UHGV virus genome: UHGV-0312576
Reading direction: 5' to 3' (one strand)
From: a virus
Length of the DNA: 64,000 nucleotides
Under the pieces are notes generated by a model that did no database searches, was not told the DNA's origin, and worked only from the letters and a program-made list of their open reading frames with translations. Below are positions 4,321 to 18,635 of the stretch, one piece after another (within the stretch, counting starts at the first letter, position 1; every line of letters starts with the position of its first letter). The position numbers and the translations under genes are program-made.

Positions 4321-4340
4321 ATTATTGGGAGGATTTATAC

Positions 4341-7060: not shown

Positions 7061-7240
7061 ATGAAGTGTAATTATTGCAAAGTCGAGATGAGGCGCGCAG
7101 CATATACTGACAACACTATTTATTCCACATCAGAAATCTATGATGTTTCCGAAGGAACTGATGTTGGAAAACGAAGATATGTAGGGAAAATATATTATTG
7201 TCCCCATTGCGGCAACCTACAAGTGAATCTGTTAGATTAG
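7061..7240 (+). CDS. small zinc-ribbon protein
   Basis: 59 aa, CNYC...CPHCG, RBS TTGGAGGA. Confidence 0.45.
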   Translation: MKCNYCKVEMRRAAYTDNTIYSTSEIYDVSEGTDVGKRRYVGKIYYCPHCGNLQVNLLD

Positions 7241-7255
7241 GATTTGGAGGAATAC

Positions 7256-7438
7256 ATGAAAGCGAAAGAATTGGCAGAAAAGTTGTTGGAGAATCCAGAA
7301 TTTGAGGTTAAGGCAATCCATTTATATCCGAGCATAGGTTGGGGATTGACCATGGAAAAATATAGTGTTAATGGTCTTGCTGACGTAGGATACAGTGATG
7401 GTGTGGCTGTTTTGGATTTAGAACGAGAAGAAGATTAG
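7256..7438 (+). CDS. hypothetical small protein
   Basis: ATG 7256 after a GGAGGAATAC RBS. Confidence 0.4.
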   Translation: MKAKELAEKLLENPEFEVKAIHLYPSIGWGLTMEKYSVNGLADVGYSDGVAVLDLEREED

Positions 7439-7464
7439 TAGCATTTAGGAAGGAGGAGACTAAA

Positions 7465-7593
7465 ATGTTTATAGTAACTACAGAGATGGGAACAAGAGAC
7501 GAGTGCTCAACAATTAACGAAGCCATAGAGGAAGCAAAAAGAATAGAGGCTAGTATACTACATCCGATAGCTTTTATTCATGAAGAAAATTAA
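7465..7593 (+). CDS. hypothetical small protein (42 aa)
   Basis: AGGAAGGAGGAG RBS. Confidence 0.35.
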   Translation: MFIVTTEMGTRDECSTINEAIEEAKRIEASILHPIAFIHEEN

Positions 7594-7620
7594 GGTTTTA
7601 AGAAAAAAAGAGGTGAAGAT

Positions 7621-7797
7621 ATGCCAGACAATACACAGAGGATTGATGATTGTGAGTGCATCTATTGCCATCACGTTTTTGATGGTAAGCAGGCTTGCAA
7701 CTCAAATATGGACGCTGGTGTCGTGGAGTGTCCAAAGTGTGGCAGGGAAATGGGCGTGAGTTTATCTATTGAGTATTTGTGTTATTCAGTAGATTAG
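7621..7797 (+). CDS. small zinc-ribbon protein
   Basis: 58 aa, CECIYC...CPKCG, RBS AGAGGTGAAG. Confidence 0.45.
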   Translation: MPDNTQRIDDCECIYCHHVFDGKQACNSNMDAGVVECPKCGREMGVSLSIEYLCYSVD

Positions 7798-7823
7798 GAT
7801 ATTCCGTAGAAAGCAGGTGAATT

Positions 7824-8150
7824 ATGTACGGAAATGAAGGCGAAAAATGGGTAATGATAACCGAGTTATCTATAAATGGATTAATGATTAATGAGGTCGG
7901 TACAGAATTTGAGATTGCCCCATATTACTCTGTACCACATGGGTATACATCCATCAAGTATGAGGGCATACTGCTTTTCATCCCAGATGATATATTTAAC
8001 GAGCATTTTGTAAAGCTGGAGAAATATAAACAATATTATCAACTGGGAGATGTTATTAAAATTAATGACAATGGAAATCTGAGTGAGTATATTATCGAGG
8101 ATATAACCGGTGATGGGCATTATGTGACGTTACATCTTGAACATAATTAA
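7824..8150 (+). CDS. hypothetical protein
   Basis: 108-aa ORF. Confidence 0.45.
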   Translation: MYGNEGEKWVMITELSINGLMINEVGTEFEIAPYYSVPHGYTSIKYEGILLFIPDDIFNEHFVKLEKYKQYYQLGDVIKINDNGNLSEYIIEDITGDGHYVTLHLEHN

Positions 8151-8169
8151 AACTTGCTAATAAATGTCA

Positions 8170-9660
8170 AGCAATTTTTGAAAAAAATTGGATCGTAAAA
8201 AAGGGTAACTTTAATAAACACCACAGTAGGTGATAAAAAAGAAGTGTAGGTTATTTATAAAGCTCCATCACTCTTGCATAGTAAATTCTCAAAAACTTAT
8301 TAACACCAGCCATTTTGGCTACAGTCTTGTGCTTACCTTCAGATTCTTTCTTGATGATGAACTGGTAAACAGGGTCATTCTCGGGCTTATGTACCTTGAG
8401 TGAGTGCATGACCTCATAGCAGGCTTTACGCAAGTAGGCTGAGCCACGTTTTGATATATGCCGATTGGTCCCTTCGAATTGCCCAGACTGATAAGGAGGT
8501 GCATCATTACCGGCGTAAGCATTAAGTGCTTTAGCACTGGTAAACCTCCGTACATCTCCAATCTCGGCAATCAGGATAGGGGCCAGGCGGTCTCCAACGC
8601 CATACATGGAACGGACAATGGAATACTCTGGCATTGTATAAGCGATAGACTGCATTTGTCGCAGTATCAAATCGGCTGAGGAGCTGGCTTGCTTTAACAT
8701 TAACAGGCACTGAGATAACGCAAGAGAAGTGGTAACATCGGGGCTGCGGGTGATAATGCCATCAGAGGCGGCTTGATAAATCGCAAGAGCTTTCTTTTGA
8801 GAACCCCTACATCGGTGTTTTTGGGCAAAAGCGATGTAACTATTTACAAACCGTTTTTCACCCATCTGAGAGATTTTTTCATAGCTCTGGTATTTTTCTA
8901 CGAAGTCGAAGAAAAGCGTGTTTTCCAGGTATCTGGATGAGATAGGAATGATATTTTGAATACCAGGCATGATATCATCTAACAGATTGGAGAGTTGGAC
9001 TCTGGCTTTGACTTTCATAGAAACGCTTTGACTGTATTGTCTGGACAGAAATTTTAGGTCCTCATACTTTTGGTCGGTAGGGCTGTAAGGCCTTAACTGA
9101 TATGACTTTTCTAACACAAAATGTGCAATGCGGACAGCATCCTTTTTATCAGTCTTTCCTTTTCTGATACTGTTGTCCATAAACTTTTTAACCAGGAATG
9201 GATTAATCACGAATACGGTGAATCCTGCTTCAAGCAGAGCTTTAAGAATGGGATAGTGGTAATGTCCAGTTGATTCCAAAGCGACTTTAGTCTCTTCTTG
9301 GTATGAATGAATTAAGGCTGTGAGTTGAGTAATATCGCTGATAGTATGTGAAAAGTCATGTGGCTTTGACAGAACAGTCCCATCAGAGCGAATAATTGCG
9401 ACAGTGCTTTTGGATTTAGATACATCAATACCTACAGCTAACATACGGGGTTCCTCCTTTGTGAATTAGTATGATTGGGTCCAGCACTCAGTTATCAATT
9501 CATTTTCGTTAGTTACCCGGAAGCGAATCCCAACTTGCTTAATCGAATTAGTGATAATGAGTGATGGTTAACACTTTTAATTTCGGGAGCTATGTCCCAC
9601 ATTTAGGCCGTTAACCAATCAGACTCATCATAACAAAAAAAATAAGAATAGGGGTTCTTT
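8170..9660 (-). mobile_element. IS110-family insertion sequence (ends approximate)
   Basis: Single transposase ORF plus a ~220-nt untranslated leader, as usual for IS110 elements. It interrupts the co-directional phage gene string. No terminal inverted repeats were found by eye. Confidence 0.55.
8251..9444 (-). CDS. IS110-family transposase (DEDD N-domain + Transposase_20 C-domain)
   Basis: MLAVGIDVSKSKSTVAII...ALESTGHYH N-terminal motif set and C-terminal YAGNDAPPYQSGQFEGTNRHISKRGSAYLRKA. Confidence 0.85.
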   Translation of the reverse strand: MLAVGIDVSKSKSTVAIIRSDGTVLSKPHDFSHTISDITQLTALIHSYQEETKVALESTGHYHYPILKALLEAGFTVFVINPFLVKKFMDNSIRKGKTDKKDAVRIAHFVLEKSYQLRPYSPTDQKYEDLKFLSRQYSQSVSMKVKARVQLSNLLDDIMPGIQNIIPISSRYLENTLFFDFVEKYQSYEKISQMGEKRFVNSYIAFAQKHRCRGSQKKALAIYQAASDGIITRSPDVTTSLALSQCLLMLKQASSSADLILRQMQSIAYTMPEYSIVRSMYGVGDRLAPILIAEIGDVRRFTSAKALNAYAGNDAPPYQSGQFEGTNRHISKRGSAYLRKACYEVMHSLKVHKPENDPVYQFIIKKESEGKHKTVAKMAGVNKFLRIYYARVMELYK

Positions 9661-9700
9661 CCCTACTCTTATATAGTACGACAATTTAGGAGGTGTATGT

Positions 9701-10030
9701 ATGAATAATAGATATTTATACAAGGCAAAGAAGATATATAAAGAGGAGTGGGTTGAAGGGTTTTATGTATTATGCAGAGGGCATCATTACATTCTTCCAG
9801 TATATGATCTTGATCACGGATTCGATGAGCGATATTCAGAATGGTTTGAGATAGAGCCATCTACTCTATGCCAGTGTACCGGAATGTGCGGTGATAAAAG
9901 CAGTGCATATATTCTCGATGGCAAGGAACTTAATGCAGACGAACTTATTATGGAATTAGCGGAGCGTGGAAAAATATTCTTAAATTTTGATAGGGATATA
10001 TCAAAATTTGGTGTAGAGGTAACTCTTTAA
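9701..10030 (+). CDS. YopX-family phage protein
   Basis: KEEWVEGFYV...EIEPSTLCQCTGMCGDKSSAYILDGKEL fits the YopX pattern EWVEGYY...I.P.T..Q.TG..DKNG..I.EGD. Confidence 0.5.
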   Translation: MNNRYLYKAKKIYKEEWVEGFYVLCRGHHYILPVYDLDHGFDERYSEWFEIEPSTLCQCTGMCGDKSSAYILDGKELNADELIMELAERGKIFLNFDRDISKFGVEVTL

Positions 10031-10294
10031 AATTACGAGATTTCCGGGAGAACCGGAGGAAGGAAAAGCGTATGGGAATTGATTTGAGTAGATTTAAGGT
10101 AATCCACGGAGACAAGGTATTAAATGCAGTGGCGCTTATGGAGATAAGGATGCCAGAAGGAACGTGGGAAGATAGAGAGACTATTATTACCTAAAACACT
10201 TGAAATTTTGGCTATTAATGAGGATGGGAACATTGTATCTATCATGGATGAGGCGTGGATGTTTCAGTTTCTTCCCATAGTCTCGAATTAGCAT

Positions 10295-10609
10295 TTGGCT
10301 GCCGACTGCCAAGTGTCGGAGAAAGCAGGAAATATGATTATAACAGGAATGAAACATTTTGAAAGTGTATGCAAAAGAAAACTTGTAGATTGGTATAACT
10401 GTGATGTGGAGACAAAAGGCACACGCATTGATTTGGATGATGTTTATATTGTATGGGCTTGCAAGACTTTACAGAACTACAAGTGTTTAGCTTCAACTTC
10501 GGTTAGTGGAGACGGTATTTATGCTGAGTATACGTATAATGGGGACAAACAGGAATTATACGAAGATGTATACAAAAAATTGACGAATACTTGCCATAGA
10601 GAAGAATAG
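10295..10609 (+). CDS. hypothetical protein
   Basis: ORF-track frame; a likely ATG start is at 10334. Confidence 0.4.
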   Translation: MAADCQVSEKAGNMIITGMKHFESVCKRKLVDWYNCDVETKGTRIDLDDVYIVWACKTLQNYKCLASTSVSGDGIYAEYTYNGDKQELYEDVYKKLTNTCHREE

Positions 10610-10670
10610 TTAAACTGAAATTTCGGAAACGAATCAACCCGTGATTTCAAGGGAGATTGGAGTTTGAAAT

Positions 10671-10892
10671 ATGTTTAAAGTTATTTATAAAAAAAGTAAA
10701 GAGCATTATCGAAGTCTATTAATAAAGGCATCCGAGATGGGAATACCTGAGGATTATATAAGACATGCTTTAGAAATAGAAATATACGGAGTAAAAGATG
10801 ATAAACATGGATATCCTACATTTTTGATTAGAAGTGATAATCGGTGGATTTGGAAAAGTGCAAAACATTTTATTCCAGTAGAAGAGATATAG
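10671..10892 (+). CDS. hypothetical protein
   Basis: 73-aa ORF. Confidence 0.4.
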   Translation: MFKVIYKKSKEHYRSLLIKASEMGIPEDYIRHALEIEIYGVKDDKHGYPTFLIRSDNRWIWKSAKHFIPVEEI

Positions 10893-11192
10893 ACGGATGA
10901 AACTCACATTTAGTCTGGTACTCTGTGAAGGGAGAAAAGAATGTTAGAGAAATTAATTGAATTATTGGGTGAAGACAATGTAAAGAAAATAGAGGATGGT
11001 ATCACTGAGATTATCTTAGATCGAATTAGGGCAGATGAAGTATCCAATTAAAGAGCGTGTGGCACGTATCGGAAATAGTGTAGTGCCGGTTATGGCTCAG
11101 GCATTAATCGAAGCTAATTGCCAAGAACTAATAGATGCATAATTCAATCAAAAGAGATTGAAATACAATTTTTATCCGTTAACACGGAGAAT

Positions 11193-11762
11193 ATGTTATT
11201 GGAGGTGATAATCATAGGACTAAATATAGGTTATTTAACATCAGACACAGAAGATAATGAGCTTTATACACCAGCATTCGCTGTAGATCCGATTATAAAA
11301 TATCTTCCAAAAGATAAAATAATGTGGCTACCATTTGATGATGAGTGGTCGATGTTTTACCAGAGATTGACTGAGGAGGGTTTTAAAGTAATTAGAAGTT
11401 CATTATCTGAAGGAAAGGACTTTTTTGAATATGAGCCGGATACCTGGGACTTCATTGTAAGTAATCCACCGTTCAGCATCAAAGATAAAGTGTTAGAACG
11501 TCTATATTCATTCAACAAACCTTTTGCGGTACTTCTTCCGCTAAACTCCCTTCAAGGTAAAACAAGATACAAATATTTTAGCCAGGGCATTCAGCTCCTC
11601 AGTTTTGATGCAAGAGTTTCTTATCATGACAGAGAACATATGGATAAGCCGGTTAAGGGGAGTCCATTCGCAACGGCATACTTTTGTAGAGATGTACTAC
11701 CAAGGGATTTGATTGTGGAGAAGTTGATTACGTATGATAGACCTTTGATAGAGAATAATTAA
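11193..11762 (+). CDS. putative amino-methyltransferase-like protein with NPPF motif (substrate unknown, DNA or RNA)
   Basis: Motif IV FIVSNPPFS is preceded by YTPAFAVDPI. A glycine-rich SAM loop is not evident. It sits directly upstream of the RNA ligase and kinase genes. Confidence 0.45.
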   Translation: MLLEVIIIGLNIGYLTSDTEDNELYTPAFAVDPIIKYLPKDKIMWLPFDDEWSMFYQRLTEEGFKVIRSSLSEGKDFFEYEPDTWDFIVSNPPFSIKDKVLERLYSFNKPFAVLLPLNSLQGKTRYKYFSQGIQLLSFDARVSYHDREHMDKPVKGSPFATAYFCRDVLPRDLIVEKLITYDRPLIENN

Positions 11763-11859
11763 CTGGACAGGAAATTTTCATTTCATGCCTTTTCAACACG
11801 AGATATAGATGAAAATAGAGGAAATTAACAAGATATAGTATAAAAAAACAGGAGGTAAT

Positions 11860-13029
11860 ATGGCAGAAAGAGCATTAGCACATATTGAAAAGGTGGAATG
11901 GGTAAATCCAATCGAAGGAGCTGATAATATCGAACTTATTGGTATATTAGGTTGGGTTTGTGTTGCAAAAAAGGAGGAGTTTAGGCCGGGAGATATTGCT
12001 GTTTACATTGAGATTGATAGTAAATGTCCGGAAAATGATGAGCGATTTGCTTTTTTGGCAGCTAAACACTATAAAGTGAAAACTATGAAGTTAGGAAAAT
12101 TCAAAGTAATCAGTCAGGGGCTTGCATTACCAATTACTTTATTCCCGGAGTTTGCTGGTAAGAAAATTGGCGATGATGTAACCAATGAACTGAAAATTAC
12201 ATACTCTTCTCAGGAAGATATTAAGAGAAAATCAAATGGAGTTGATCCGGAAGCCAAGTATAAAGCAATGGCTAACAGGAAGCCTAATTTGTTTAAGAAG
12301 CCATTAGTACGGAAGATAATGAGGTACAAATTTGGACGTAAGTTAATGTTTTTGCTTTTTGGCAGAAAGAAAGATAATCCGAAGAAATTTCCTGATTGGA
12401 TTGTGAAGACTGATGAAACAAGAATTGAGAATGCTCCGTTTTATTTAAATAGTACAGATAAATGGGTTAAAACAGAGAAGTGTGATGGGACTAGCTGTAC
12501 GTATGCTGTTGACAGATTAAAAAAAGGGAAAAATAAATTTGATTTTATTGTGTGTAGTAGAAATGTACGGCAAGCAGATAGAAACCAAGAAACTTATCAC
12601 GACTCAAATATTTATTGGGAACTGGCAGATAAATATGGGATTGAAAAGATTCTTACTGATTTTGCAACAGAGAATAATTATAGCAGAGTGGTATTACAGG
12701 GAGAGGGAGTTGGTTCTGTTCAAGGAAATCCATATAAATTGAAGGAGAATGTACTATATGTATTTAATCTCATTATTGATGGAGTGAGGGCTGGAACTGT
12801 GGAAATGTCTAACTTTTGCAAGGCACATAATTTAACAAGTGTTCCAATTATTGATACTGAATGTGTATTGCCGAAGACTATGGAAGAAATGAAGCTTGAG
12901 GCTGATGGATATAGTGAGTTAAATCCAAAGGTAAAGAGAGAAGGATTTGTATATAGGAGTGTTGATGGACAACAGAGTTTTAAAAATGTTTCAAGAGAGT
13001 ATTTGTTAAAACATAATGGTAAGGAGTAA
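11860..13029 (+). CDS. ATP-dependent RNA ligase (covalent nucleotidyltransferase superfamily, KxDG motif I)
   Basis: Lysine-adenylylation motif VKTEKCDGTS near residue 200; AGGAGGTAATATGG RBS. It is adjacent to a polynucleotide kinase gene, as in T4 pnk/rnlA healing-sealing pairs. Confidence 0.6.
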   Translation: MAERALAHIEKVEWVNPIEGADNIELIGILGWVCVAKKEEFRPGDIAVYIEIDSKCPENDERFAFLAAKHYKVKTMKLGKFKVISQGLALPITLFPEFAGKKIGDDVTNELKITYSSQEDIKRKSNGVDPEAKYKAMANRKPNLFKKPLVRKIMRYKFGRKLMFLLFGRKKDNPKKFPDWIVKTDETRIENAPFYLNSTDKWVKTEKCDGTSCTYAVDRLKKGKNKFDFIVCSRNVRQADRNQETYHDSNIYWELADKYGIEKILTDFATENNYSRVVLQGEGVGSVQGNPYKLKENVLYVFNLIIDGVRAGTVEMSNFCKAHNLTSVPIIDTECVLPKTMEEMKLEADGYSELNPKVKREGFVYRSVDGQQSFKNVSREYLLKHNGKE

Positions 13030-13034
13030 ACGAG

Positions 13035-14099
13035 ATGTCAATACCAATTTTTACAATGATGGTAGGTTTACCTGGTAGTGGTAAATCTACCTACGCAGAA
13101 AAACTATCAAAAGAACGCAGCGCAATAATTTGTAGTTCTGATAAAGTTAGAGAAGATTTGTATGGAGACGAAAACTCGCAAAGCAACAATGATGAGGTTT
13201 TTAAATTATTACATAAAAGAATTAAAGAACTTCTTAAAGCAGGCGAAAGTGTTATTTATGATGCGACGAATATCAATTCCAAAAGACGTAGAGCATTTTT
13301 ATCTGAATTGAGAAGTATTCCATGTAAAAAGATTTGCGTGATAATGGCAACTTCATTGAAGAAGTGTTGTAGACAGAATAATTCTAGGAGCAGGACAGTT
13401 CCATATGAAGTTATTGAGAGAATGTATAAGAACTGGAATACCCCGTATTGGTTTGAAGGATGGGATGAGATTAAAGTTGCTTCGGAATATAAATTACCAA
13501 ACCTAATTTTTTGTTGGTTGACGGATTATATGGATTTTAATCAACAAAATCCAAATCATACTTTAACACTTGGGAAACACTCTATTGAAGTAGGGGATTA
13601 CTTTCCAGAAAATAGTTTATTGCGAGATGCTGGATACCTTCATGACTGTGGAAAGCCGTTTACAAAATCTTTTAATAACTCAAAGGGAGAAGAAACAAAT
13701 GTGGCGCATTATTATCAACATCATTGTGTAGGAGCTTATGATAGTTTGTTTTATGACTATTCAGAAGGCGTTGATAGATTAGACGGCTCTATTCTAATTA
13801 ATTTGCACATGATGCCTTATTTTTGGGAGAAAGACAAAGAGTACGGGGAGAAGACAAGGTTGAAATATAAGAAGCTATGGGGTGAGGAACTATATAACAA
13901 TGTGATGAAACTGCATGAGGCTGTGGAGTGGTGCCAACAGCATGGTTTGGAATTTGATGCTATTAACGAGAATCTACCGGAGACACTAGAGTGGCTTGGC
14001 GGAACTGAAAGTAGGAAAATTCACGCAGATGTCTTTATTGATGACAAGGCTGTTAATAAGCCAAAATATTGTGTGCCATATAAGGAGTGTACCATGTAA
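13035..14099 (+). CDS. polynucleotide kinase (P-loop) fused to an HD-domain phosphoesterase (RNA end-healing enzyme)
   Basis: Walker A MMVGLPGSGKST. C-terminal HD signature HTLTLGKHS...GYLHDCGKP...HHC resembles the CCA-enzyme HD 2',3'-cyclic phosphodiesterase. Confidence 0.65.
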   Translation: MSIPIFTMMVGLPGSGKSTYAEKLSKERSAIICSSDKVREDLYGDENSQSNNDEVFKLLHKRIKELLKAGESVIYDATNINSKRRRAFLSELRSIPCKKICVIMATSLKKCCRQNNSRSRTVPYEVIERMYKNWNTPYWFEGWDEIKVASEYKLPNLIFCWLTDYMDFNQQNPNHTLTLGKHSIEVGDYFPENSLLRDAGYLHDCGKPFTKSFNNSKGEETNVAHYYQHHCVGAYDSLFYDYSEGVDRLDGSILINLHMMPYFWEKDKEYGEKTRLKYKKLWGEELYNNVMKLHEAVEWCQQHGLEFDAINENLPETLEWLGGTESRKIHADVFIDDKAVNKPKYCVPYKECTM

Positions 14100-14584
14100 T
14101 GGAGCAGCTGAATTACCTTAAACAAAAGATGATTCCTATTGTGAATCAATGTCTGAAGATACATGGCGGTGGAGAAAGCTATTTTGATGAATTAGACGGT
14201 CTGATTAAGAATGACATTGAGTTAATGGTTACATATCTTAAATATGCAGTAGAAAAAGAGAAGATTGAGAATGTGGTTGTATCTGGAGAAATTGGTCTTA
14301 TATTATCTAAGCTAATCAGCAAAAAGATTATTCCCATGGATGTTAATTTAATATGTCTGAATGGAGGGCTGCGTAAGGGGGAGGAGCCGGTGGGAACTAT
14401 CCCGCGTTACCAATCGTTCAAAGCCATCTTTTTCGATGACAGCTATTATAGTGGTAAGACGGCTATGGCAGTTCATGATTACATACATAAGTGTGGAGGA
14501 ACCATTGTGAAGAATTACGTTTTCTACGATGGTTGCTTAAAGAAACATGATGATGTGGATAGTCTATATCGGTATTACAAATAG
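14087..14584 (+). CDS. type I phosphoribosyltransferase (PRTase) domain protein
   Basis: PRPP-binding motif AIFFDDSYYSGKTA; overlaps the upstream gene by 13 nt. Confidence 0.55.
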   Translation: MYHVMEQLNYLKQKMIPIVNQCLKIHGGGESYFDELDGLIKNDIELMVTYLKYAVEKEKIENVVVSGEIGLILSKLISKKIIPMDVNLICLNGGLRKGEEPVGTIPRYQSFKAIFFDDSYYSGKTAMAVHDYIHKCGGTIVKNYVFYDGCLKKHDDVDSLYRYYK

Positions 14585-14624
14585 GCTGAAATTTCGGTTT
14601 CGTGTGAGGAGGTGGGTGGCGAAA

Positions 14625-14828
14625 ATGTCAATTTTGATGATTGAAGACCAGCTTGTAACGGTTAAGGGATCAGAAGTTCTGAAAGCGCAATTTGAGAATT
14701 ATTGTAGTTGGTGTTGGGGACACGGATACGGGAACTGTGATATGTGTAAAAGGGTTTATCACAGATATTATATTCCGATTAGAAAAAGAGAACTTCAAGA
14801 AAAATTGGGATTAAATGATATAAGATGA
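14625..14828 (+). CDS. small Cys-rich protein
   Basis: ATG 14625 after a GAGGAGGTG RBS; CSWCWGHGYGNCDMC. Confidence 0.4.
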   Translation: MSILMIEDQLVTVKGSEVLKAQFENYCSWCWGHGYGNCDMCKRVYHRYYIPIRKRELQEKLGLNDIR

Positions 14829-14869
14829 AAGTCGAGTTTCTTGTGCTAATAGAAATGGGGTGACAGAAA

Positions 14870-15205
14870 ATGGAGTGTCCATATTGTGGTAAAGAATTAA
14901 ACTGTGTAGACCATCATGGGACTGGAAGGCCGGAATGTTATTATGGAACGGCTGCTAACGGCATATATTATCCATCAACATATAACAAACTTGGTGACAT
15001 TTATAAATGCAGTAACTCTTTTGGGTTCAACAACAAAAGCGAAGCTATGGATTATATTAACGCTCAATCAGAAGCAGATTTAGAGAAATATATTAATGAT
15101 AATGAACTGGAAGACTGGATGGATATCGTCTGTGAGAGTGAAACATTTAATGAGAACTTCTACACAGACAATAATGAAAATTTATTTGAGGGTTATCCAT
15201 GTTAG
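14870..15205 (+). CDS. hypothetical protein with N-terminal CPYCG...C zinc-ribbon-like motif
   Basis: 111-aa ORF. Confidence 0.45.
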   Translation: MECPYCGKELNCVDHHGTGRPECYYGTAANGIYYPSTYNKLGDIYKCSNSFGFNNKSEAMDYINAQSEADLEKYINDNELEDWMDIVCESETFNENFYTDNNENLFEGYPC

Positions 15206-15213
15206 GAGGTTGA

Positions 15214-15612
15214 ATGAAAGAACTTAGAATTATCATAGCTGGTGGGAGAGATTTTGACGATTTTGAATTACTTTACAAAAGTGTTGAGAAAATTCAGCTT
15301 GATTATGTTGATAGATATTTTGATGAATTATCAAGAGTTTGCATTGTAAGTGGAAACGCAAGAGGAGCTGATAAACTTGGCGAATTATATGCGAAGAGAA
15401 TGGGATTGCACATTTATATATGTCCAGCAGCGTGGGATTTATACGGAAAGAGTGCTGGTTACAGAAGAAATGCTGAAATGGCAAAGTTTGCTTCTGAAGA
15501 TGGTAACATTGGCGTACTGATTGCATTCTGGGACGGTAAGAGTCGAGGAACTAAACATATGATTGATTTGGCGAAGAGATATGGACTGAAAGTACATGCG
15601 GTGAACTACTAG
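15214..15612 (+). CDS. SLOG-superfamily Rossmann protein (DUF2493 / DprA-LOG-like)
   Basis: IIIAGGRDF...IVSGNARGADKLGE...ICPAAWDLYGKSAGYRRNAEMA...VLIAFWDGKSRGT pattern. Confidence 0.5.
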   Translation: MKELRIIIAGGRDFDDFELLYKSVEKIQLDYVDRYFDELSRVCIVSGNARGADKLGELYAKRMGLHIYICPAAWDLYGKSAGYRRNAEMAKFASEDGNIGVLIAFWDGKSRGTKHMIDLAKRYGLKVHAVNY

Positions 15613-15628
15613 ATGGGAGAATATATAA

Positions 15629-15898
15629 ATGAAGAAAACAAAACAGATTGATACATATTATTGTGATTATTGCGGTAAAGAGTGTGAACAAACACCGGAA
15701 TATTTTATGCCAGAAATAAGAAAAGTACAATATACAAGCCGTTGCTCGAAAAATATTATTAGACCATCACAAAAGGATATTTGTCCAGTTTGCCAAAAGC
15801 AGATTGCGAAACTTATCAATCTCTTACATTATGCAGATTTTGTAGGTGATGATATGGAAAAAGTGGTATATGTGCTTTTGAAAAAGTCAAAGGCTTGA
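15629..15898 (+). CDS. small zinc-finger protein
   Basis: 89 aa, CDYCG...CPVC. Confidence 0.45.
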   Translation: MKKTKQIDTYYCDYCGKECEQTPEYFMPEIRKVQYTSRCSKNIIRPSQKDICPVCQKQIAKLINLLHYADFVGDDMEKVVYVLLKKSKA

Positions 15899-15953
15899 AA
15901 CTTTGGATTCGTGTGAAAGTGGGTGATTTAATATCATAAGAAATATAGATGAA

Positions 15954-16148
15954 ATGGCAGAAGATGAGTCATTGTGTGAATATTGTGATGCGGAACCTGG
16001 TTGGCATATGCCTGGTGGCGGTACTCCGTATTCTTGTGAAGGCGCATATTGTAAAGAAGCATATGAGTGCTATTTGAATGAATTGGGTATTTCCGATAGG
16101 GTTGTAAAGATTAAAAATAAAACAAAAGTGACGATAGAAAGGGATTAA
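15954..16148 (+). CDS. small Cys-rich protein
   Basis: 64 aa, CEYCD...C..AYC. Confidence 0.4.
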   Translation: MAEDESLCEYCDAEPGWHMPGGGTPYSCEGAYCKEAYECYLNELGISDRVVKIKNKTKVTIERD

Positions 16149-16149
16149 T

Positions 16150-16719
16150 ATGGGGCAGATTTTAAAGATAGAATACGATATGGAAGACATGGTTCTTGGT
16201 ATTAAAGAAGCGGTTAAAGAAGAATTGAAGCCTGAAATTGCTGAGGAAATCCGAGAGGAAATCAAGTCAGAAATTAAGTCAGAGATTATGAATAAGGTAA
16301 AAGAACAGATTCCAGAGGATACATCGGTTTGGCTCAAAGATATTATGAAAGAAATTTATGATACAGAAATCATCAGAGTCGGTGGTGGATGGAACGAAGA
16401 TGATAAAGAATATACATTGAGAGAATATGTAATTGAACAGATTAAGGACAGGATTGTAAACAATGATTGTGGTTCAAAAAAGAGTTATTCTTCAACGTCA
16501 TTTAATGAATGGTTTAGAGATAAATGTGTAGATACTGATATACAGAAAGTGATCGATAGAGAAATCAAGACAATTCGTGATGATGTAAATAGCAAAGTAA
16601 AAAGTATGTTTGATAGCAGCACAAAGCAAATGTTATCAGAAGCGGTTCTGAATGTACTTATGGCGAATGATACATATAAGAAAATCGAAAGCAATATTGG
16701 TAGTATAGCTTCAAAATAA
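16150..16719 (+). CDS. hypothetical protein with acidic EIKSEIKSEI repeat
   Basis: 189-aa ORF. Confidence 0.45.
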   Translation: MGQILKIEYDMEDMVLGIKEAVKEELKPEIAEEIREEIKSEIKSEIMNKVKEQIPEDTSVWLKDIMKEIYDTEIIRVGGGWNEDDKEYTLREYVIEQIKDRIVNNDCGSKKSYSSTSFNEWFRDKCVDTDIQKVIDREIKTIRDDVNSKVKSMFDSSTKQMLSEAVLNVLMANDTYKKIESNIGSIASK

Positions 16720-16761
16720 GGTTTGAAATCTTGGTTTCCTGTGTACGGGGAGGATAATAGT

Positions 16762-17010
16762 ATGGATCAAAATAAATCAGATTATGAAATATATCTATCG
16801 TTATTACAAAATGCAAATATTAAACATGTTACTACAAAGGGAGACTTCCCAGAGAGTTTATATGATAATTTGTATATCGCTACATATGCATCTTATAGCG
16901 ATAGTATAATAACTGTTCATCAATTTAAAGAGTCTGGTAAATTATGTGATATTTATATTGCAGATGCATGTAAAACTTTGGAAGAGTTTTTGAATTATAC
17001 ATCAGAATAA
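16762..17010 (+). CDS. hypothetical protein
   Basis: ATG 16762 after GGGGAGGATAATAGT. Confidence 0.4.
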   Translation: MDQNKSDYEIYLSLLQNANIKHVTTKGDFPESLYDNLYIATYASYSDSIITVHQFKESGKLCDIYIADACKTLEEFLNYTSE

Positions 17011-17084
17011 ACCATCGTTTCATGAGAAATAAAGGAGCGTGAAAAAGTAGTAAAAATCGGTTAGAAGAAAGGTGGTGAAAAGTA

Positions 17085-17459
17085 GTGCATCCGAGCAAAT
17101 TCTTTGAAGAGGTAGGTTGTCGGACTCACATGGATGTGTTTGAACAATATGATCCCTATATCAAGGAGCAGCTTAAAAATGTGCATCCTTTGAATTTCAT
17201 AAAAACCAGGGTTACACTTCCGGTTTTCAAGATTACAATTTCATATAGTACAATAAAAGGTAATCTTCGCCATACGGAAAAGTATATTGTTTTAGACAAC
17301 TCACATCTAGAATCATCAGACTCATTTAATTTATATGTTGAATCAAATGTGCAAATGGAATGTGATTCCTATAACTCGGCTCATCCAAAGAATCCGATGC
17401 TAGATTTTATGATAAATAAGATTGAATTCGTTTGTGACGCTGTGCTACCAATTGGGTAG
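17085..17459 (+). CDS. hypothetical protein
   Basis: 124-aa ORF, probable GTG start. Confidence 0.4.
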   Translation: MHPSKFFEEVGCRTHMDVFEQYDPYIKEQLKNVHPLNFIKTRVTLPVFKITISYSTIKGNLRHTEKYIVLDNSHLESSDSFNLYVESNVQMECDSYNSAHPKNPMLDFMINKIEFVCDAVLPIG

Positions 17460-17633
17460 GTTTTTACCAGATGTATTAAACGCCTTTAGTAGATAAAGGT
17501 TGTCACGAGATTATGAAGCTGGAACGCTGAGATAAATAATCGAAAAAGATATGCGGTAGTGACATAAAAAGACACCCGCTAAGTATGGCTTTGCCTCATG
17601 CAAGCGTAATAAATTGCGTGAGGAAAGTACATA

Positions 17634-18635
17634 TTGGTAGAAAGCAAATATACAGCAACAGACTTAAAGATTATGCAGTCCTGGCTCCTGGAAAGAAAAA
17701 TTCAGGTGAGTCAAACCAGGATATTAGAAACATATAACAGATATAATAACATGTGTTACGTCTCCTTTAGCGGAGGCAAGGATAGTAGCGTATTGGCTGA
17801 TTTAACAGCCAGAGTATGTAAAGTACTAAACTGTAAATTAGTTCTATGGTTCTCAGATACAGGTCTTGAATTTCCAGAAGTAAAAAAACATGTCAAAGAG
17901 TTTCCAACCTATTTAAGAAACAGATATGGTATTGAAGTTGAACTGATAGTAGATTATCCGAGAGATAAATCTGGTAAGCGTATATCATTTAGAGATGTGG
18001 TGTTGACTGAAGGATATCCGGTTATCTCTAAAACTGTCAGCCGCCAGGTTCGCGATGTAAAGAAGCTTGGTAAAAATTGCTGGGCTTACGGATGTTTCAA
18101 TGGCAGAGAGAAAGGTATCTATAATATGCTGCAATGGAAGTATCTTATTGATGCTCCATTCAAGGTATCCAATAAGTGCTGCCAAATCATGAAGAAGAAT
18201 CCAGCTAAGAGGTTCAATAAGAGTAGTGGAAGAATACCTATTATTGGGACCATGGCCTGTGAGAGTAAGCAGCGAAAAACAGAGCGGCTACATAATGGCT
18301 GTAATGCTTTCGATAAAGGGGAACCTAGCAGCCAACCGATTAGCTTTTGGACAGAAAATGATGTTCTGGAATATCTATACCGTTTTGATGTACCATATCC
18401 ATCAGTTTATGGAGAAATATGTATTGATGAGGATGGCAAATATTATTGTACAGGATATAGTAGAACGGGATGTGTATTTTGCGCTTTTGGGTGTCATCTG
18501 GAAAAGGATATTAATCGATTCCAGAGATTATTAAAGACTCATCCGAGGCTTTGGCTTTATTGTATGAAACCTGTAATGTATGGTGGTCTGGGAATGGCTA
18601 AGGTGCTTAGGTATATAGGCGTAAAGTATTTTTGA
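17634..18635 (+). CDS. PAPS-reductase family protein (PP-loop ATPase; phage DndC/DUF3440-like)
   Basis: PP-loop VSFSGGKDSSVLADL; C-terminal Cys cluster; probable TTG start. Confidence 0.65.
   Translation: MVESKYTATDLKIMQSWLLERKIQVSQTRILETYNRYNNMCYVSFSGGKDSSVLADLTARVCKVLNCKLVLWFSDTGLEFPEVKKHVKEFPTYLRNRYGIEVELIVDYPRDKSGKRISFRDVVLTEGYPVISKTVSRQVRDVKKLGKNCWAYGCFNGREKGIYNMLQWKYLIDAPFKVSNKCCQIMKKNPAKRFNKSSGRIPIIGTMACESKQRKTERLHNGCNAFDKGEPSSQPISFWTENDVLEYLYRFDVPYPSVYGEICIDEDGKYYCTGYSRTGCVFCAFGCHLEKDINRFQRLLKTHPRLWLYCMKPVMYGGLGMAKVLRYIGVKYF

What the first reader, a model, noticed from the sequence alone, without database searches (positions are those of the whole stretch)
11193..15612. Phage RNA healing-and-sealing cassette: NPPF methyltransferase-like protein, RNA ligase, kinase-HD phosphoesterase, PRTase, SLOG protein
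Five consecutive, tightly packed genes. A KxDG RNA ligase (KTEKCDGTS) is directly followed by a P-loop polynucleotide kinase fused to an HD domain; the HD domain resembles the 2',3'-cyclic phosphodiesterase of CCA-adding enzymes. Together they can convert 5'-OH / 2',3'>p tRNA breaks into ligatable ends, the T4 Pnkp/Rnl1 logic for defeating anticodon nucleases (PrrC/RloC, colicin-like tRNases). The kinase-HD fusion differs from the classic kinase-DxDGT phosphatase. The upstream NPPF methyltransferase-like gene recalls the bacterial Pnkp/Hen1 system, where a methyltransferase marks the repaired junction against recleavage; that methyltransferase link is speculative. A type I PRTase and a SLOG (DUF2493) protein immediately downstream may belong to the same module.
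Basis: partly seen in the sequence, partly recalled or inferred. Interest (0 to 1): 0.7.

Follow-up and report, generated by a model that had tools for sequence, protein, structure and literature searches.

The report
Phage RNA-repair gene pair, one clipped

Summary
The genes are real and at the stated coordinates, but the module is two genes, not five. The core is an Rnl5-type RNA ligase (11860-13029; NgrRnl E=1e-35, all catalytic residues kept) followed 6 nt later by a polynucleotide kinase fused to a CCA-enzyme-type HD phosphoesterase (Pnk-HD). Ligase and Pnk-HD lie together in 72 of 88 related loci, with the ligase family swapped (Rnl5-type, a 435-aa OB+ligase type, Rnl1-like). They are annotated as "RNA ligase" and "polynucleotide kinase" in cultured Bacillus phages, so this is a known kind of end-healing and sealing system.

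New here: ORF 13035-14099 is a chimera. A relative 99.9% identical on both sides shows the window lacks 5.41 kb, deleted between two copies of GAAACTnnATGAGGCTG. The deletion removed the last five Pnk-HD codons, including an Asp kept in 119 of 119 homologues. It fused the gene to the back half of a BT0820-type HAD phosphatase, whose tail AlphaFold predicts to be disordered. The cyclic-phosphodiesterase step is therefore probably impaired in this copy.

The NPPF methyltransferase lies outside the conserved block, looks like a DNA adenine methylase, and does not resemble Hen1. The PRTase fold is confirmed, and 8 of 11 lineages of this family sit beside RNA-repair-type genes, which is an open lead. 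The SLOG link is weak.

The parts
11772..13923 (+). Conserved two-gene block (97-nt leader, ligase, Pnk-HD core) that moves as a unit between mosaic phages
   Evidence: 99.6% identical to L009 4738-6889 (IMG/VR UViG_3300045988_164015), while both flanks differ. The block starts 10 nt after the MTase-like stop codon.
11860..13029 (+). Rnl5-type ATP-dependent RNA ligase, 389 aa: N-terminal OB domain, ~60-aa basic linker, nucleotidyltransferase domain
   Evidence: PF21189 6.9e-23 (aa 6-92) and PF09414 1.3e-17 (aa 201-375). NgrRnl 5cot 1.1e-35. TIGR02306 RNA_lig_DRB0094 5.7e-26. R4, D53, R188, K207, D209, E282, E361 and K375 align with NgrRnl R4, D53, R149, K170, D172, E227, E312 and K326.
13035..13484 (+). 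5'-OH polynucleotide kinase domain of Pnk-HD (aa 1-150): P-loop GLPGSGKS 11-18, D36, R39, D76, R118, R120
   Evidence: AAA_33 8.9e-25. CthPnkp kinase 4gp7 1.7e-12. Foldseek top hits are polynucleotide kinases: CthPnkp, mammalian PNKP, T4 Pnkp, Pnkp1. The listed residues are invariant in alignment A1.
13485..13922 (+). HD phosphoesterase domain (aa ~151-296), truncated: H175, H203-D204, H229, H258 and H294 kept; the terminal invariant Asp and His (ADKxAH) lost
   Evidence: Alignment A1. 119 of 119 other top homologues end in xD(K)xxH. Intact homologues match Pfam HD positions 4-112/116 above threshold (9 of 9), while the window matches only 4-67/116 at 15.8 bits, below the cutoff of 22. tRNA_CCA_actino 5e-5 and HDIG 4e-4.
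13902..13923 (.). Deletion junction: surviving hybrid copy of the imperfect direct repeat GAAACTnnATGAGGCTG
   Evidence: L137 1-9889 equals window 4035-13923 (99.93%) and L137 15278-18906 equals window 13902-17531 (99.56%). The two matches overlap by 22 nt, and 5.41 kb of L137 is absent from the window. The same left breakpoint is seen against L009.
13924..14099 (+). In-frame remnant of a BT0820-family HAD phosphatase gene (codons ~55-117); lacks the DxDGT nucleophile motif
   Evidence: NF046079 HAD_phos_BT0820 3.2e-12, profile positions 47-97/137. PDB 2obb 3.9e-7. 81% identical to residues 55-117 of the intact 117-aa gene in L009, which carries DFDGT. AF2 pLDDT below 35 for aa 305-354.
14099..14584 (+). 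PRTase-like protein, 161 aa, a divergent type I phosphoribosyltransferase fold; neighbour whose link to RNA repair is open
   Evidence: No Pfam, PHROG or NCBIfam hit. AF2 pLDDT 88.8. The top 50 Foldseek PDB hits listed are PRTase-fold proteins (OPRT, purine PRT, APRT, PyrR and PRTase-related/unnamed entries), E ~1e-5. The DDSYYSGKT PRPP-loop motif is conserved. Context survey.
11193..11762 (+). NPPF amino-methyltransferase, 189 aa; flanking gene, probably a DNA N6-adenine methylase, not part of the cassette
   Evidence: phrog_799 'DNA methyltransferase' 1.3e-29. Weak matches to EcoRI_methylase, N6_Mtase and Eco57I, and fusions to ParB_N, HTH and D12 Dam among relatives. PDB profile best hit is the DNA adenine MTase 7vru at 1.3e-3. 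Lies outside the shared block.
14637..14828 (+).
   Evidence: Called in identical contigs. No family hit. Absent from relatives L002 and L095.
14870..15205 (+).
   Evidence: No family hit.
15214..15612 (+). YAcAr-family SLOG protein (DUF2493), 132 aa; neighbour
   Evidence: PF10686 4.4e-12, 46.1 bits against a cutoff of 28.2. phrog_289 2e-29. Found within 6 kb of Pnk-HD in only 11 of 88 loci.

Best explanation
The functional unit is a two-gene RNA end-healing and sealing cassette carried by a ~155-160-kb temperate phage or prophage of Enterocloster bolteae (Lachnospiraceae). Gene 1 is an Rnl5-type ATP-dependent RNA ligase with an N-terminal OB domain and an adenylyltransferase domain. Gene 2 is Pnk-HD: an N-terminal P-loop 5'-OH polynucleotide kinase joined to a C-terminal HD phosphoesterase of the kind found in CCA-adding enzymes.

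Inferred mechanism. [quoted passage not shown] The ligase, via K207-AMP, then seals the 3'-OH/5'-PO4 break. Because Rnl5 enzymes are nick sealers, the break is probably held in a duplex or stem context.

In this particular genome a 5.41-kb deletion between two short direct repeats removed the last five Pnk-HD codons, a block of cargo genes and the first ~54 codons of a HAD phosphatase gene. This created the 354-aa chimeric ORF. The chimera has lost the terminal Asp, the canonical last metal ligand of HD domains. The 3'-end healing step is therefore probably weakened or dead here, while the kinase and ligase look intact.

The upstream NPPF methyltransferase is a neighbouring, probably DNA-directed, methylase. 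The downstream PRTase-like and SLOG genes belong to the phage backbone beyond a cargo hotspot and were brought next to Pnk-HD by the deletion.

Status of each step. Shown: gene families, conserved residues, synteny, the deletion and its junction, and loss of the invariant Asp. Inferred: RNA (tRNA or rRNA) as substrate, the anti-defence role, and loss of HD activity.
For: Ligase family and residues. Kinase: and invariant residues. HD.

Synteny: 72 of 88 loci have a ligase nearby, mostly abutting or overlapping, and three ligase types are exchanged against a constant Pnk-HD. A 2.15-kb ligase+Pnk-HD block is 99.6% identical between phages whose flanks differ. Bacillus phages Thrax1 and Kirov carry adjacent genes annotated 'RNA ligase' and 'polynucleotide kinase'. 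Other RNA-repair-type genes (RlaP-like NTase in 33 of 88 loci, Band-7, Thg1) recur in these neighbourhoods.

The phage has a separate ATP-dependent DNA ligase at 48825-50108, so the Rnl5-type enzyme is not needed for DNA joining.

Deletion. Invariant terminal Asp. Pfam HD coverage lost. Tail disordered. The fused form is identical to WP_002572313.1 of E. bolteae; 143 contigs carry the fused form and 134 carry the intact form.

Literature: phage heal-and-seal logic, including HD-type phosphatases (PMC7824862); Runella HD-Pnk clustered with a ligase (PMC6097658); Rnl5 enzymes as nick sealers (PMC4408790, PMC5397189).
Against: No biochemistry exists for this Pnk-HD architecture or for these proteins. 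The substrate (tRNA, rRNA, mRNA or RNA-DNA junctions) is unknown. Characterised Rnl5 enzymes seal duplex nicks and have not been shown to repair anticodon loops. The D. radiodurans Rnl5 knockout phenotype is radiation sensitivity, which suggests genome-damage repair.

The similarity of the HD domain to CCA-enzyme HD domains is weak (E 0.02 to 5e-5). The fused variant is as common as the intact one (143 vs 134 contigs), so the truncation is not strongly selected against. Either the HD domain still works (E298 and H303 lie near the lost Asp and His positions) or it is dispensable in the prophage state. One relative has a nonsense codon in the ligase, which hints that the cassette may be decaying in this lineage. 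No anticodon nuclease was looked for in the host.
Confidence: 0.72

Rival explanations
1. One reading: a five-gene module in which the NPPF methyltransferase acts like Hen1 to mark the repaired junction, and the PRTase and SLOG proteins are integral parts.
For: MTase-like homologues lie within 6 kb of Pnk-HD in 21 of 88 loci, and directly next to it in L068-L073. NCBI names some family members 'tRNA (adenine-N(6)-)-methyltransferase'. PRT, SLOG and the cassette lie together in this lineage.
Against: The NPPF motif marks amino (N6-A, N4-C) methyltransferases, not 2'-O-methyltransferases. No Hen1 chain reached E<=1 in the PDB profile search, and the best hit is a DNA adenine MTase. Relatives are fused to ParB_N, HTH and D12 Dam domains. 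The MTase lies just outside the shared mosaic block. That flank holds unrelated DNA MTase families in L005, L007 and L009. Position and strand vary among loci. PRT is absent from 84 of 88 Pnk-HD loci and SLOG from 77 of 88. The PRT adjacency here was created by a deletion.
Confidence: 0.05
2. The ligase and Pnk-HD repair nucleic-acid breaks in the phage genome or at RNA-DNA junctions (ribonucleotide-terminated nicks, damaged replication intermediates) rather than host tRNA or rRNA cut by defence nucleases.
For: Rnl5 enzymes seal duplex nicks whose 3'-OH strand is RNA, and loss of DraRnl sensitises D. radiodurans to radiation (PMC5397189, PMC4408790). Runella HD-Pnk is described as a DNA/RNA end-healing enzyme (title cited). 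The cassette sits in the replication and nucleotide-metabolism arm of the phage.
Against: The phage encodes its own ATP-dependent DNA ligase. In related phages the same Pnk-HD is paired with Rnl1-like ligases, the tRNA-repair family (PF09511). It also travels with tRNA-oriented enzymes: RlaP-like NTase and Thg1.
Confidence: 0.15
3. The chimeric 354-aa protein is fully functional. The HD domain tolerates the loss of the terminal Asp and His because E298 and H303 of the grafted HAD sequence substitute for them, so this copy still carries out complete healing.
For: The graft continues the helix (AF2 helix 271-303) and supplies an acidic residue one position later and a His two positions later: LHEAVEWCQQH against LHEADKxAH. 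The fused form is identical in 143 contigs and about as frequent as the intact form.
Against: Asp at that position is invariant in 119 of 119 homologues. It matches the C-terminal 'AD' metal-ligand motif covered by Pfam HD positions up to 112/116. A one-residue shift on a helix points the side chain about 100 degrees away. Prevalence may simply reflect clonal spread of a prophage in E. bolteae.
Confidence: 0.2
4. The PRTase-like protein, with the HAD phosphatase (intact in relatives) and perhaps the SLOG protein, forms a separate nucleotide-derivative pathway. It would make or break a nucleoside-like signal in the style of the Ter system's PRTase+HAD biosynthetic pair, and would be unrelated to RNA repair.
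For: HAD and PRT are adjacent backbone genes in all undeleted relatives. In L009/L095 they follow a P-type ATPase, three TerD genes and a PspA-like gene, and in L099/L100 PRT directly precedes the same kind of cluster. The Ter system is described as including PRTases and HAD phosphoesterases that make a nucleoside or nucleotide derivative (PMC7824862). YAcAr SLOG domains are predicted to act on NAD+ or nucleotides (PMC7824862).
Against: The cargo between Pnk-HD and HAD-PRT is interchangeable: an ABC transporter, PspA-like and NMT1-OmpA set in L136-L140 against the Ter set in L009. Ter genes are therefore cargo, not fixed partners. HAD is next to PRT only in this lineage. 8 of 11 PRT lineages sit beside RNA-repair-type genes instead.
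Confidence: 0.3

Closest known systems
Runella slithyformis HD-Pnk with its adjacent ATP-dependent ligase (Munir & Shuman 2017, as described in PMC6097658)
   Same: One polypeptide combines an HD 2',3'-phosphoesterase with a P-loop 5'-OH polynucleotide kinase. Its gene abuts or overlaps a polynucleotide ligase gene (window gap 6 nt).
   Different: The domain order is reversed: kinase N-terminal and HD C-terminal here. The element is a phage, not a bacterial chromosome. The ligase is Rnl5-type. There is no Tpt1 or MTase-HIT partner. In this copy the HD domain is truncated.
T4 Pnkp + Rnl1 tRNA repair pathway
   Same: The logic is the same: a kinase and a 3'-phosphoesterase heal the ends and an ATP-dependent ligase seals them. 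The kinase domain is structurally related (Foldseek hits 2ia5 and 1ly1).
   Different: The phosphoesterase is HD-type, not HAD (DxDGT). The HAD fragment present is an accidental graft without the nucleophile motif. The ligase is not Rnl1 (no PF09511 match), although some related phages do pair Pnk-HD with an Rnl1-like ligase.
Rnl5 family: Deinococcus radiodurans DraRnl and Naegleria gruberi NgrRnl
   Same: An N-terminal OB domain precedes the nucleotidyltransferase domain. All catalytic residues mapped in NgrRnl are conserved. E=1e-35 to 5cot.
   Different: There is a basic linker of about 60 aa between the two domains, where NgrRnl has about 15 aa. The score is below NCBIfam's equivalog cutoff (91 vs 151 bits). 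It is operonic with an end-healing enzyme, whereas DraRnl and NgrRnl have no known healing partner.
RNA ligase plus 'polynucleotide kinase' pair of large Bacillus siphophages (vB_BanS-Thrax1, Kirov, Tsamsa group)
   Same: The same Pnk-HD architecture (31-34% identity over aa 4/6-296 of the 296-aa core query) lies directly downstream of an RNA ligase. A DUF2493/SLOG gene and a nucleotidyltransferase gene lie a few kb away.
   Different: Those copies are intact. The host clade differs. No PRTase-like gene of this family was seen next to them.
Bacterial Pnkp/Hen1 RNA repair-and-modification system
   Same: The kinase domain is related to that of CthPnkp, and a methyltransferase gene lies next door.
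   Different: The phosphoesterase is not calcineurin-type. The ligase is a separate Rnl5-type gene. The methyltransferase is an NPPF amino-MTase with no similarity to Hen1.

Membership tests
Rnl5 RNA ligases (DraRnl/NgrRnl) | N-terminal OB domain followed by the nucleotidyltransferase domain (order reversed relative to DNA ligases) | tested here: met
   PF21189 OB domain at aa 6-92 (6.9e-23) and PF09414 at aa 201-375 (1.3e-17). Two-segment alignment to NgrRnl 5cot, E=1.1e-35.
Rnl5 RNA ligases (DraRnl/NgrRnl) | Catalytic residues: motif I Lys and Asp, motif III Glu, motif IV Glu, motif V Lys, the Arg that contacts the gamma phosphate, and OB-domain Arg4 and Asp53 | tested here: met
   K207, D209, E282, E361, K375, R188, R4 and D53 align with NgrRnl K170, D172, E227, E312, K326, R149, R4 and D53.
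Rnl5 RNA ligases (DraRnl/NgrRnl) | Score above NCBIfam equivalog threshold (TIGR02306 RNA_lig_DRB0094) | tested here: not met
   91.2 bits against a cutoff of 151.15, E=5.7e-26. This places it as a divergent member, not an equivalog.
Rnl5 RNA ligases (DraRnl/NgrRnl) | Seals 3'-OH(RNA)/5'-PO4 nicks in duplexes | not testable with these tools
   Needs an enzyme assay.
Rnl1 (T4 RnlA) tRNA ligases | Match to the RNA_lig_T4_1 domain (PF09511) | tested here: not met
   No PF09511 hit for the window ligase. PF09511 ligases do occur next to Pnk-HD in L005 and L065-L073.
T4-type Pnkp (kinase + HAD phosphatase) | P-loop 5'-kinase domain with a catalytic Asp and Arg | tested here: met
   GLPGSGKS, D36, R39, D76, R118 and R120 are invariant. 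T4 Pnkp matches by sequence at 5.8e-4 and by fold.
T4-type Pnkp (kinase + HAD phosphatase) | DxDGT acyl-phosphatase (HAD) domain | tested here: not met
   Only HAD profile positions 47-97/137 are present. Motif I (DFDGT, seen in the intact L009 gene) is deleted, and the tail is predicted disordered.
HD-Pnk (Runella type) | HD phosphoesterase and Pnk in one polypeptide, encoded next to a ligase | tested here: met
   for the domains; for ligase adjacency.
HD-Pnk (Runella type) | Domain order: HD N-terminal, kinase C-terminal | tested here: not met
   The kinase occupies aa 1-150 and the HD domain aa ~170-296.
HD superfamily metal-dependent phosphohydrolases (CCA-enzyme type) | Complete H...HD...D metal-ligand set | tested here: not met
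   H175 and H203-D204 are present, but the terminal Asp is replaced by Val297. That Asp is kept in 119 of 119 homologues. The Pfam HD score is 15.8 bits against a cutoff of 22, whereas intact homologues pass in 9 of 9 cases.
HD superfamily metal-dependent phosphohydrolases (CCA-enzyme type) | Specific similarity to the HD domain of class II CCA/A-adding enzymes | tested here: inconclusive
   TIGR02692 tRNA_CCA_actino 5.3e-5 over aa 174-235. A. aeolicus A-adding enzyme 3wfp E=0.02 with shared HDxGKP, YxH and HxxPxF motifs. The matches are weak but consistent.
Hen1 RNA 3'-terminal 2'-O-methyltransferase | Sequence similarity to Hen1 methyltransferase domains | tested here: not met
   A family profile (40 sequences) searched against PDB sequences at E<=1 returned no chain named Hen1 or from the 4xrp/4xru Pnkp1/Rnl/Hen1 entries. 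The best hit is the DNA adenine MTase 7vru at 1.3e-3. The NPPF motif at aa 91-94 is the amino-MTase motif.
N6-adenine DNA methyltransferases (gamma-like, EcoRI/type I M family) | Motif X (YTP) and motif IV (NPPF/Y), with family-level matches | tested here: inconclusive
   LYTP at aa 24 and NPPF at aa 91. phrog_799 1.3e-29. The Pfam EcoRI_methylase match is only 0.013 for the window protein; 7 of 40 relatives match at up to 2.3e-6. Whether the substrate is DNA or RNA is untested.
Type I phosphoribosyltransferases | PRTase fold | tested here: met
   AF2 pLDDT 88.8. The top 50 Foldseek PDB matches are all PRTase-fold proteins, E ~1e-5, TM 0.45-0.59.
Type I phosphoribosyltransferases | PRPP-binding loop (hydrophobic strand, then DD-x3-[ST]-G-x-T) | tested here: met
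   IFFDDSYYSGKT at aa 109-121, with D113, D114, S118, G119 and T121 invariant in 20 of 20 sequences.
Type I phosphoribosyltransferases | Pfam Pribosyltran (PF00156) gathering score | tested here: not met
   No hit for the window protein. Only the most distant relatives give sub-threshold PF00156 hits.
YAcAr SLOG family (PF10686 / DUF2493) | Pfam gathering score | tested here: met
   46.1 bits against a cutoff of 28.2, E=4.4e-12.
Ter (tellurite-resistance-like) system | TerD, TerB, TerC or TelA components next to a PRTase+HAD pair | tested here: not met
   No TerD, P-type ATPase or PspA-like match anywhere in the 64-kb window. They are present as cargo in the relative L009/L095.

The most novel reading that the evidence does not exclude
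The small, unannotated PRTase-fold family represented by 14099-14584 is a previously unrecognised accessory of phage RNA-repair systems. In 8 of 11 independent lineages it lies within 3 kb of Rnl5-type ligase, Pnk-HD, RlaP, Thg1, Band-7/SPFH or TROVE genes, and it is often the immediate neighbour. It might use its PRPP or ribose-5-phosphate pocket on RNA-related substrates, for example to salvage bases for the nucleotide-adding repair enzymes, to bind 5'-phosphorylated ends, or to act on base-damaged RNA.
Probability: 0.3. Interest if true: 0.6.

Novelty: new member of a known kind. Interest (0 to 1): 0.35.

Why it matters
RNA heal-and-seal cassettes are how phages undo tRNA- and rRNA-cutting defences, and this one shows that the system is common in large temperate phages of human-gut Lachnospiraceae. 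The Pnk-HD architecture (kinase first, CCA-type HD second) appears to be biochemically uncharacterised. It pairs with at least three ligase families, which makes it a good test case for how healing and sealing modules are mixed.

The natural pair of alleles in E. bolteae, intact 301-aa and clipped 354-aa, is a ready-made experiment on whether the HD step matters. The finding is also a caution: a tidy 'kinase-HD' ORF read from sequence alone was in fact a deletion chimera, and gene adjacency here was made by that deletion. The recurrent placement of an unannotated PRTase-fold family beside RNA-repair genes is a modest new lead.

Tried and rejected
(1) Hen1-like role for the NPPF methyltransferase: rejected.

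(2) Rnl1 or Rnl2 assignment of the ligase: rejected in favour of Rnl5.

(3) The C-terminal 57 aa as a real third (HAD) healing domain, which would have made a kinase-HD-HAD enzyme: rejected. Only the back half of the HAD fold is present, it is predicted disordered, and the undeleted parent sequence exists.

(4) Assembly artefact as the origin of the chimera: rejected. The identical protein is in RefSeq (WP_002572313.1) and on 143 contigs.

(5) Ter genes as fixed partners of HAD-PRT: weakened. The same site holds an ABC-transporter/PspA/OmpA cargo in closer relatives.

(6) Promoter and terminator scan of 10500-17200: no more sites than in shuffled sequence, so uninformative.

(7) Nucleotide search of GenBank phages: only short matches.

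(8) PDB sequence searches for the SLOG protein and for the single MTase sequence: nothing significant.

(9) The Foldseek search of the whole Pnk-HD model was dominated by the kinase domain and gave no information on the HD domain.

(10) Burroughs & Aravind 2016 and Munir & Shuman 2017 could not be read because they are not held. Their content is cited only as quoted in other papers.

(11) The genome-contig scan gave only three loci (Lachnospiraceae MAG, Roseburia, Sarcina), and no search for host anticodon nucleases was possible.

Full report
OBSERVATION

The motif KTEKCDGTS is at ligase residues 204-212.

- They are not strictly consecutive. Two small Cys-rich ORFs (14637-14828 and 14870-15205) sit between the PRTase-like gene and the SLOG gene.
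- The start at 13035 for the kinase-HD ORF is supported by the conserved N-terminus MS.P.F.MMVGL in homologues.
- The PRTase-like gene most likely starts at the ATG at 14099 (homologues start MxQLN).

WHAT EACH GENE IS

Ligase (11860-13029)
- Pfam finds an N-terminal PHA02142-type OB domain (aa 6-92, 6.9e-23) and RNA_ligase PF09414 (aa 201-375, 1.3e-17).
- The only solved relatives are the Naegleria gruberi RNA ligase structures (E=1.1e-35). NCBIfam's best model is RNA_lig_DRB0094, the Deinococcus DraRnl family (5.7e-26, below the equivalog cutoff).
- Using the alignment and the residue roles given in PMC7261155, R4, D53, R188, K207, D209, E282, E361 and K375 correspond to NgrRnl R4, D53, R149, K170, D172, E227, E312 and K326.
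- This is therefore an Rnl5-type ligase, not Rnl1 or Rnl2. Characterised Rnl5 enzymes seal 3'-OH(RNA)/5'-PO4 nicks in duplexes (PMC4408790, PMC5397189).
- The protein has a ~60-aa Lys/Arg-rich linker between its two domains, where NgrRnl has ~15 aa.

Kinase-HD (13035-14099)
- Residues 1-150 form a P-loop polynucleotide kinase: AAA_33 8.9e-25 and Clostridium thermocellum Pnkp kinase domain 1.7e-12. Foldseek hits on the AlphaFold model are polynucleotide kinases: CthPnkp, mammalian PNKP, T4 Pnkp, Pnkp1. The P-loop, D36, R39, D76, R118 and R120 are invariant.
- Residues ~170-296 carry H175, H203-D204, H229, H258 and H294.
- NCBIfam gives tRNA_CCA_actino 5.3e-5 and HDIG 3.8e-4 for aa 173-235.
- A profile of the HD region of nine intact homologues finds the Aquifex A-adding enzyme as its best solved relative (E=0.02), with matching HDxGKP, YxH and HxxPxF motifs.

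THE ORF IS A CHIMERA

- Of 2130 homologues, the best 120 are almost all ~303 aa and cover only 84% of the query. They end in ...LHEADKxAH, whereas the window protein diverges after KLHEA.
- Its last 57 residues match the C-terminal half of BT0820-family HAD phosphatases: NF046079 3.2e-12, profile positions 47-97/137, and PDB 2obb 3.9e-7.
- A metagenome contig (L137, 161.9 kb) is 99.93% identical to window 4035-13923 and 99.56% identical to window 13902-17531. The two matches overlap by 22 nt in the window, and 5.41 kb of L137 is missing from the window.
- The junction is an imperfect direct repeat: GAAACTGCATGAGGCTG at the end of Pnk-HD and GAAACTTTATGAGGCTG inside the HAD gene. The same left breakpoint is seen against a second relative, L009.
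- The deletion removed three things: the last five codons and stop of Pnk-HD; a cargo block (ABC permease, ABC ATPase, a PspA-like protein, an NMT1+OmpA protein and small ORFs); and the first ~54 codons of the 117-aa HAD gene, including its DFDGT nucleophile motif.
- AlphaFold predicts the grafted tail (aa 305-354) as disordered, with pLDDT below 35.
- This is not an assembly error. The 354-aa protein is identical to RefSeq WP_002572313.1 of Enterocloster bolteae and was seen on 143 contigs. The intact 301-aa allele (RHC48495.1, E. bolteae) was seen on 134 contigs.

CONSEQUENCE FOR THE HD DOMAIN

- Every one of the other 119 top homologues has Asp at the position now occupied by Val297, and nearly all have His four residues further on.
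- Intact homologues match Pfam HD across profile positions 4-112 of 116 and pass the threshold (9 of 9, best 9.7e-9). The window protein matches only positions 4-67, at 15.8 bits against a cutoff of 22.
- From general knowledge of HD domains (H...HD...D, with the last Asp a metal ligand, as in the 'ADRLHN' motif of Rel/SpoT hydrolases; my own knowledge, not tested here), the lost Asp is the fourth metal ligand.
- I therefore infer that the phosphoesterase is impaired in this copy.
- Caveats: the graft supplies E298 and H303 close by, and the clipped allele is as common as the intact one.

IS THE LIGASE + PNK-HD PAIR A REAL UNIT?

Yes.
- Among 88 loci that encode a Pnk-HD homologue (8 from metagenomes and genomes, 80 from IMG/VR), 72 have an RNA ligase within 6 kb, mostly ending within a few nucleotides of, or overlapping, the Pnk-HD start.
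- The ligase family varies: Rnl5-type as here (17 loci); a 435-aa OB+PF09414 type (44); Rnl1-like PF09511 (10); and sometimes an extra Rnl2-like gene.
- In 33 loci a ~270-aa protein with a GS...DxD nucleotidyltransferase signature sits between ligase and Pnk-HD. This fits the RlaP-type 'ligase-associated Pol-beta NTase' theme (PMC12776372; PMC7824862), although that protein itself has no Pfam hit.
- A 2.15-kb segment comprising the leader, the ligase and the Pnk-HD core (window 11772-13923) is 99.6% identical in phage L009, whose flanks on both sides are different. The pair therefore moves as a unit.
- Cultured Bacillus phages vB_BanS-Thrax1 and Kirov have the same adjacent pair, annotated 'RNA ligase' and 'polynucleotide kinase'.
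- The window phage also has its own ATP-dependent DNA ligase at 48825-50108.
- The literature already describes phage RNA repair as ligase + kinase + phosphatase, and notes HD-like phosphatases in a minority of phages (PMC7824862). It also describes a bacterial HD-Pnk next to a ligase (PMC6097658).
- No paper in the library uses 'Pnk-HD'. I found no biochemical study of this domain order.

THE METHYLTRANSFERASE

- The 189-aa protein has LYTP and NPPF motifs, a strong PHROG match to 'DNA methyltransferase' (1.3e-29) and only a weak Pfam match to EcoRI_methylase.
- It lies just outside the block shared with L009, whose corresponding flank holds N6_N4 and D12 DNA methylases. L005 and L007 have yet other DNA methylases there.
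- Among 40 diverse relatives, seven match EcoRI_methylase, two match N6_Mtase and one matches Eco57I. Individual members are fused to ParB_N, HTH domains or a D12 Dam methylase. These are DNA-related partners.
- A family profile finds a type I DNA adenine methylase as the best solved relative (1.3e-3), and no Hen1 chain reached E<=1.
- Some database entries call the family 'tRNA (adenine-N(6)-)-methyltransferase'. No curated NCBIfam model matches, so the substrate remains formally untested.
- Homologues occur within 6 kb of Pnk-HD in 21 of 88 loci, but at varying positions and on either strand.
- I read it as one of many anti-restriction methylases in a counter-defence region, not as a Hen1 analogue.

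THE PRTASE-LIKE GENE

- It has no family hit in Pfam, PHROGs or NCBIfam and only 131 homologues.
- It folds confidently (pLDDT 88.8). Its 50 best PDB matches are all PRTase-fold proteins, and it keeps a PRPP-loop motif, DDSYYSGKT.
- Its position next to Pnk-HD is a result of the deletion. In undeleted relatives the order is Pnk-HD, 5-6 kb of cargo, HAD, PRT, (small ORFs), SLOG.
- The cargo differs between relatives: ABC transporter, PspA-like and NMT1-OmpA in L136-L140, against a P-type ATPase, three TerD genes and a PspA-like gene in L009/L095. The site is therefore a cargo hotspot.
- Two readings remain open.
  - (a) HAD+PRT as a nucleoside-derivative pair of the kind described for Ter systems (PMC7824862). 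PRT also abuts a P-type ATPase/TerD cluster in L099/L100.
  - (b) A link to RNA repair. When PRT loci are clustered at 80% identity, 8 of 11 lineages have an RNA-repair-type gene within 3 kb. These are Thg1 overlapping upstream (L093 group), Band-7 directly upstream (L102/L104, L123), RlaP 0.3-1 kb downstream (L091, L096, L123), TROVE 0.6 kb downstream (L124), an Rnl5-type ligase 0.7 kb upstream (L125), and Rnl5 + Pnk-HD 2-3 kb upstream (L101 group).
- I did not run a matched-control enrichment, so this is a lead, not a result.

SLOG AND SMALL ORFS

- The 132-aa protein is a clear YAcAr SLOG. That family is predicted to act on NAD+ or nucleotides (PMC7824862).
- It follows PRT in this lineage but lies within 6 kb of Pnk-HD in only 11 of 88 loci. 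In Bacillus phages it is ~4 kb from the pair.
- The two small ORFs have no matches and are absent in close relatives.

CONTEXT

- The window is the replication and accessory arm of a large temperate phage: DnaB-like helicase, RecJ-like exonuclease, DNA polymerase, ExoV/Dda-like helicase, DNA ligase, NrdD and an integrase. It also has YorF/SPbeta-like genes, three tRNAs and a RAGATH-27 RNA, and an IS110 transposase.
- Hosts indicated are Enterocloster bolteae and other Lachnospiraceae.
- No RlaP, Thg1, Band-7, TROVE or second RNA ligase is present in the 64 kb.

VERDICT

- This is a real but ordinary two-gene RNA heal-and-seal cassette, a new member of a known kind.
- The five-gene module and the Hen1 analogy are not supported. 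The PRTase-family association with RNA-repair neighbourhoods is the only part with some novelty potential.
- Mechanistic steps (substrate, anti-defence role, loss of HD activity) are inferences that need the assays listed under next steps.

Noticed in passing
window 13902-13923; L137 9890-15299; L009 6907-12493: The site between Pnk-HD and the HAD-PRT backbone genes is a cargo hotspot. It holds an ABC transporter, a PspA-like gene and an NMT1+OmpA block in L136-L140. It holds a P-type ATPase, three TerD genes and a PspA-like gene in L009. It is empty (deleted) in the window. Both cargos include a PspA/IM30-like protein.
   Followed up: partly
proteins P0093 and P0095 (481 aa), homologues of window 13035-13922: Some Pnk-HD homologues carry a ~180-aa insertion with NUMOD4/HNH_3 homing-endonuclease domains. 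The insertion lies inside the HD domain, between the HDCGKP motif and the YYQHH motif, in frame.
   Followed up: no
L026 5173-5994, L019 5190-5996 and 31 other loci: A ~270-aa protein with a GSQNY...SD[VI]DSK nucleotidyltransferase-like signature sits between the RNA ligase and Pnk-HD in 33 of 88 loci. It has no Pfam hit. It is presumably an RlaP-like NTase and is absent from the window.
   Followed up: partly
L138 7826-8995 (relative of window 11860-13029): In one otherwise near-identical relative the ligase has a nonsense codon at position 30 (TTA to TAA) and a D53G change. This is either pseudogenisation or a sequencing error, and it hints that the cassette can decay in the prophage state.
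   Followed up: partly
window 12202-12384 (ligase aa 115-175): A ~60-aa Lys/Arg-rich linker lies between the OB and nucleotidyltransferase domains of the ligase, where NgrRnl has ~15 residues. It may be an extra RNA-binding element.
   Followed up: no
window 25105-25188: RAGATH-27 RNA motif (93.7 bits against a gathering score of 76.1), just upstream of tRNA-Gln(UUG) at 25564-25637 and tRNA-Met at 25710-25783. A second tRNA-Gln(UUG) is at 2846-2920.
   Followed up: no
window 8251-9444 (- strand): An IS110-family transposase (DEDD_Tnp_IS110 + Transposase_20) is inserted in the otherwise + strand phage arm. It is present in most but not all close relatives (absent in L138).
   Followed up: no
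window 17634-18635 and 22684-23463: A PAPS-reductase-like protein and an ADP-ribosylglycohydrolase lie a few kb downstream. Together with the SLOG and PRTase-like genes they suggest a nucleotide/NAD-centred counter-defence region.
   Followed up: no
window 48825-50108, 57585-58949, 30091-31158: The window encodes a separate ATP-dependent DNA ligase, an integrase and a YorF (SPbeta-like) homologue. The element looks like a large SPbeta-like temperate phage of Enterocloster bolteae.
   Followed up: partly
L128 5531-6904, L129 5956-7968, L130 5929-7398: The most distant relatives of the PRTase-like protein are 457-670-aa multidomain proteins. Each has the PRT domain at the N-terminus, and a second PRT-like gene follows 0-0.8 kb downstream. 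The rest of each protein has no Pfam match.
   Followed up: no
L131 (Bacillus phage Thrax1) 11487-14969; L132 (Kirov) 10514-12960: In Bacillus phages the RNA ligase/Pnk-HD pair lies ~4 kb upstream of genes annotated PRPP synthetase and nicotinamide or nicotinate phosphoribosyltransferase. This may be an NAD+ reconstitution pair.
   Followed up: no
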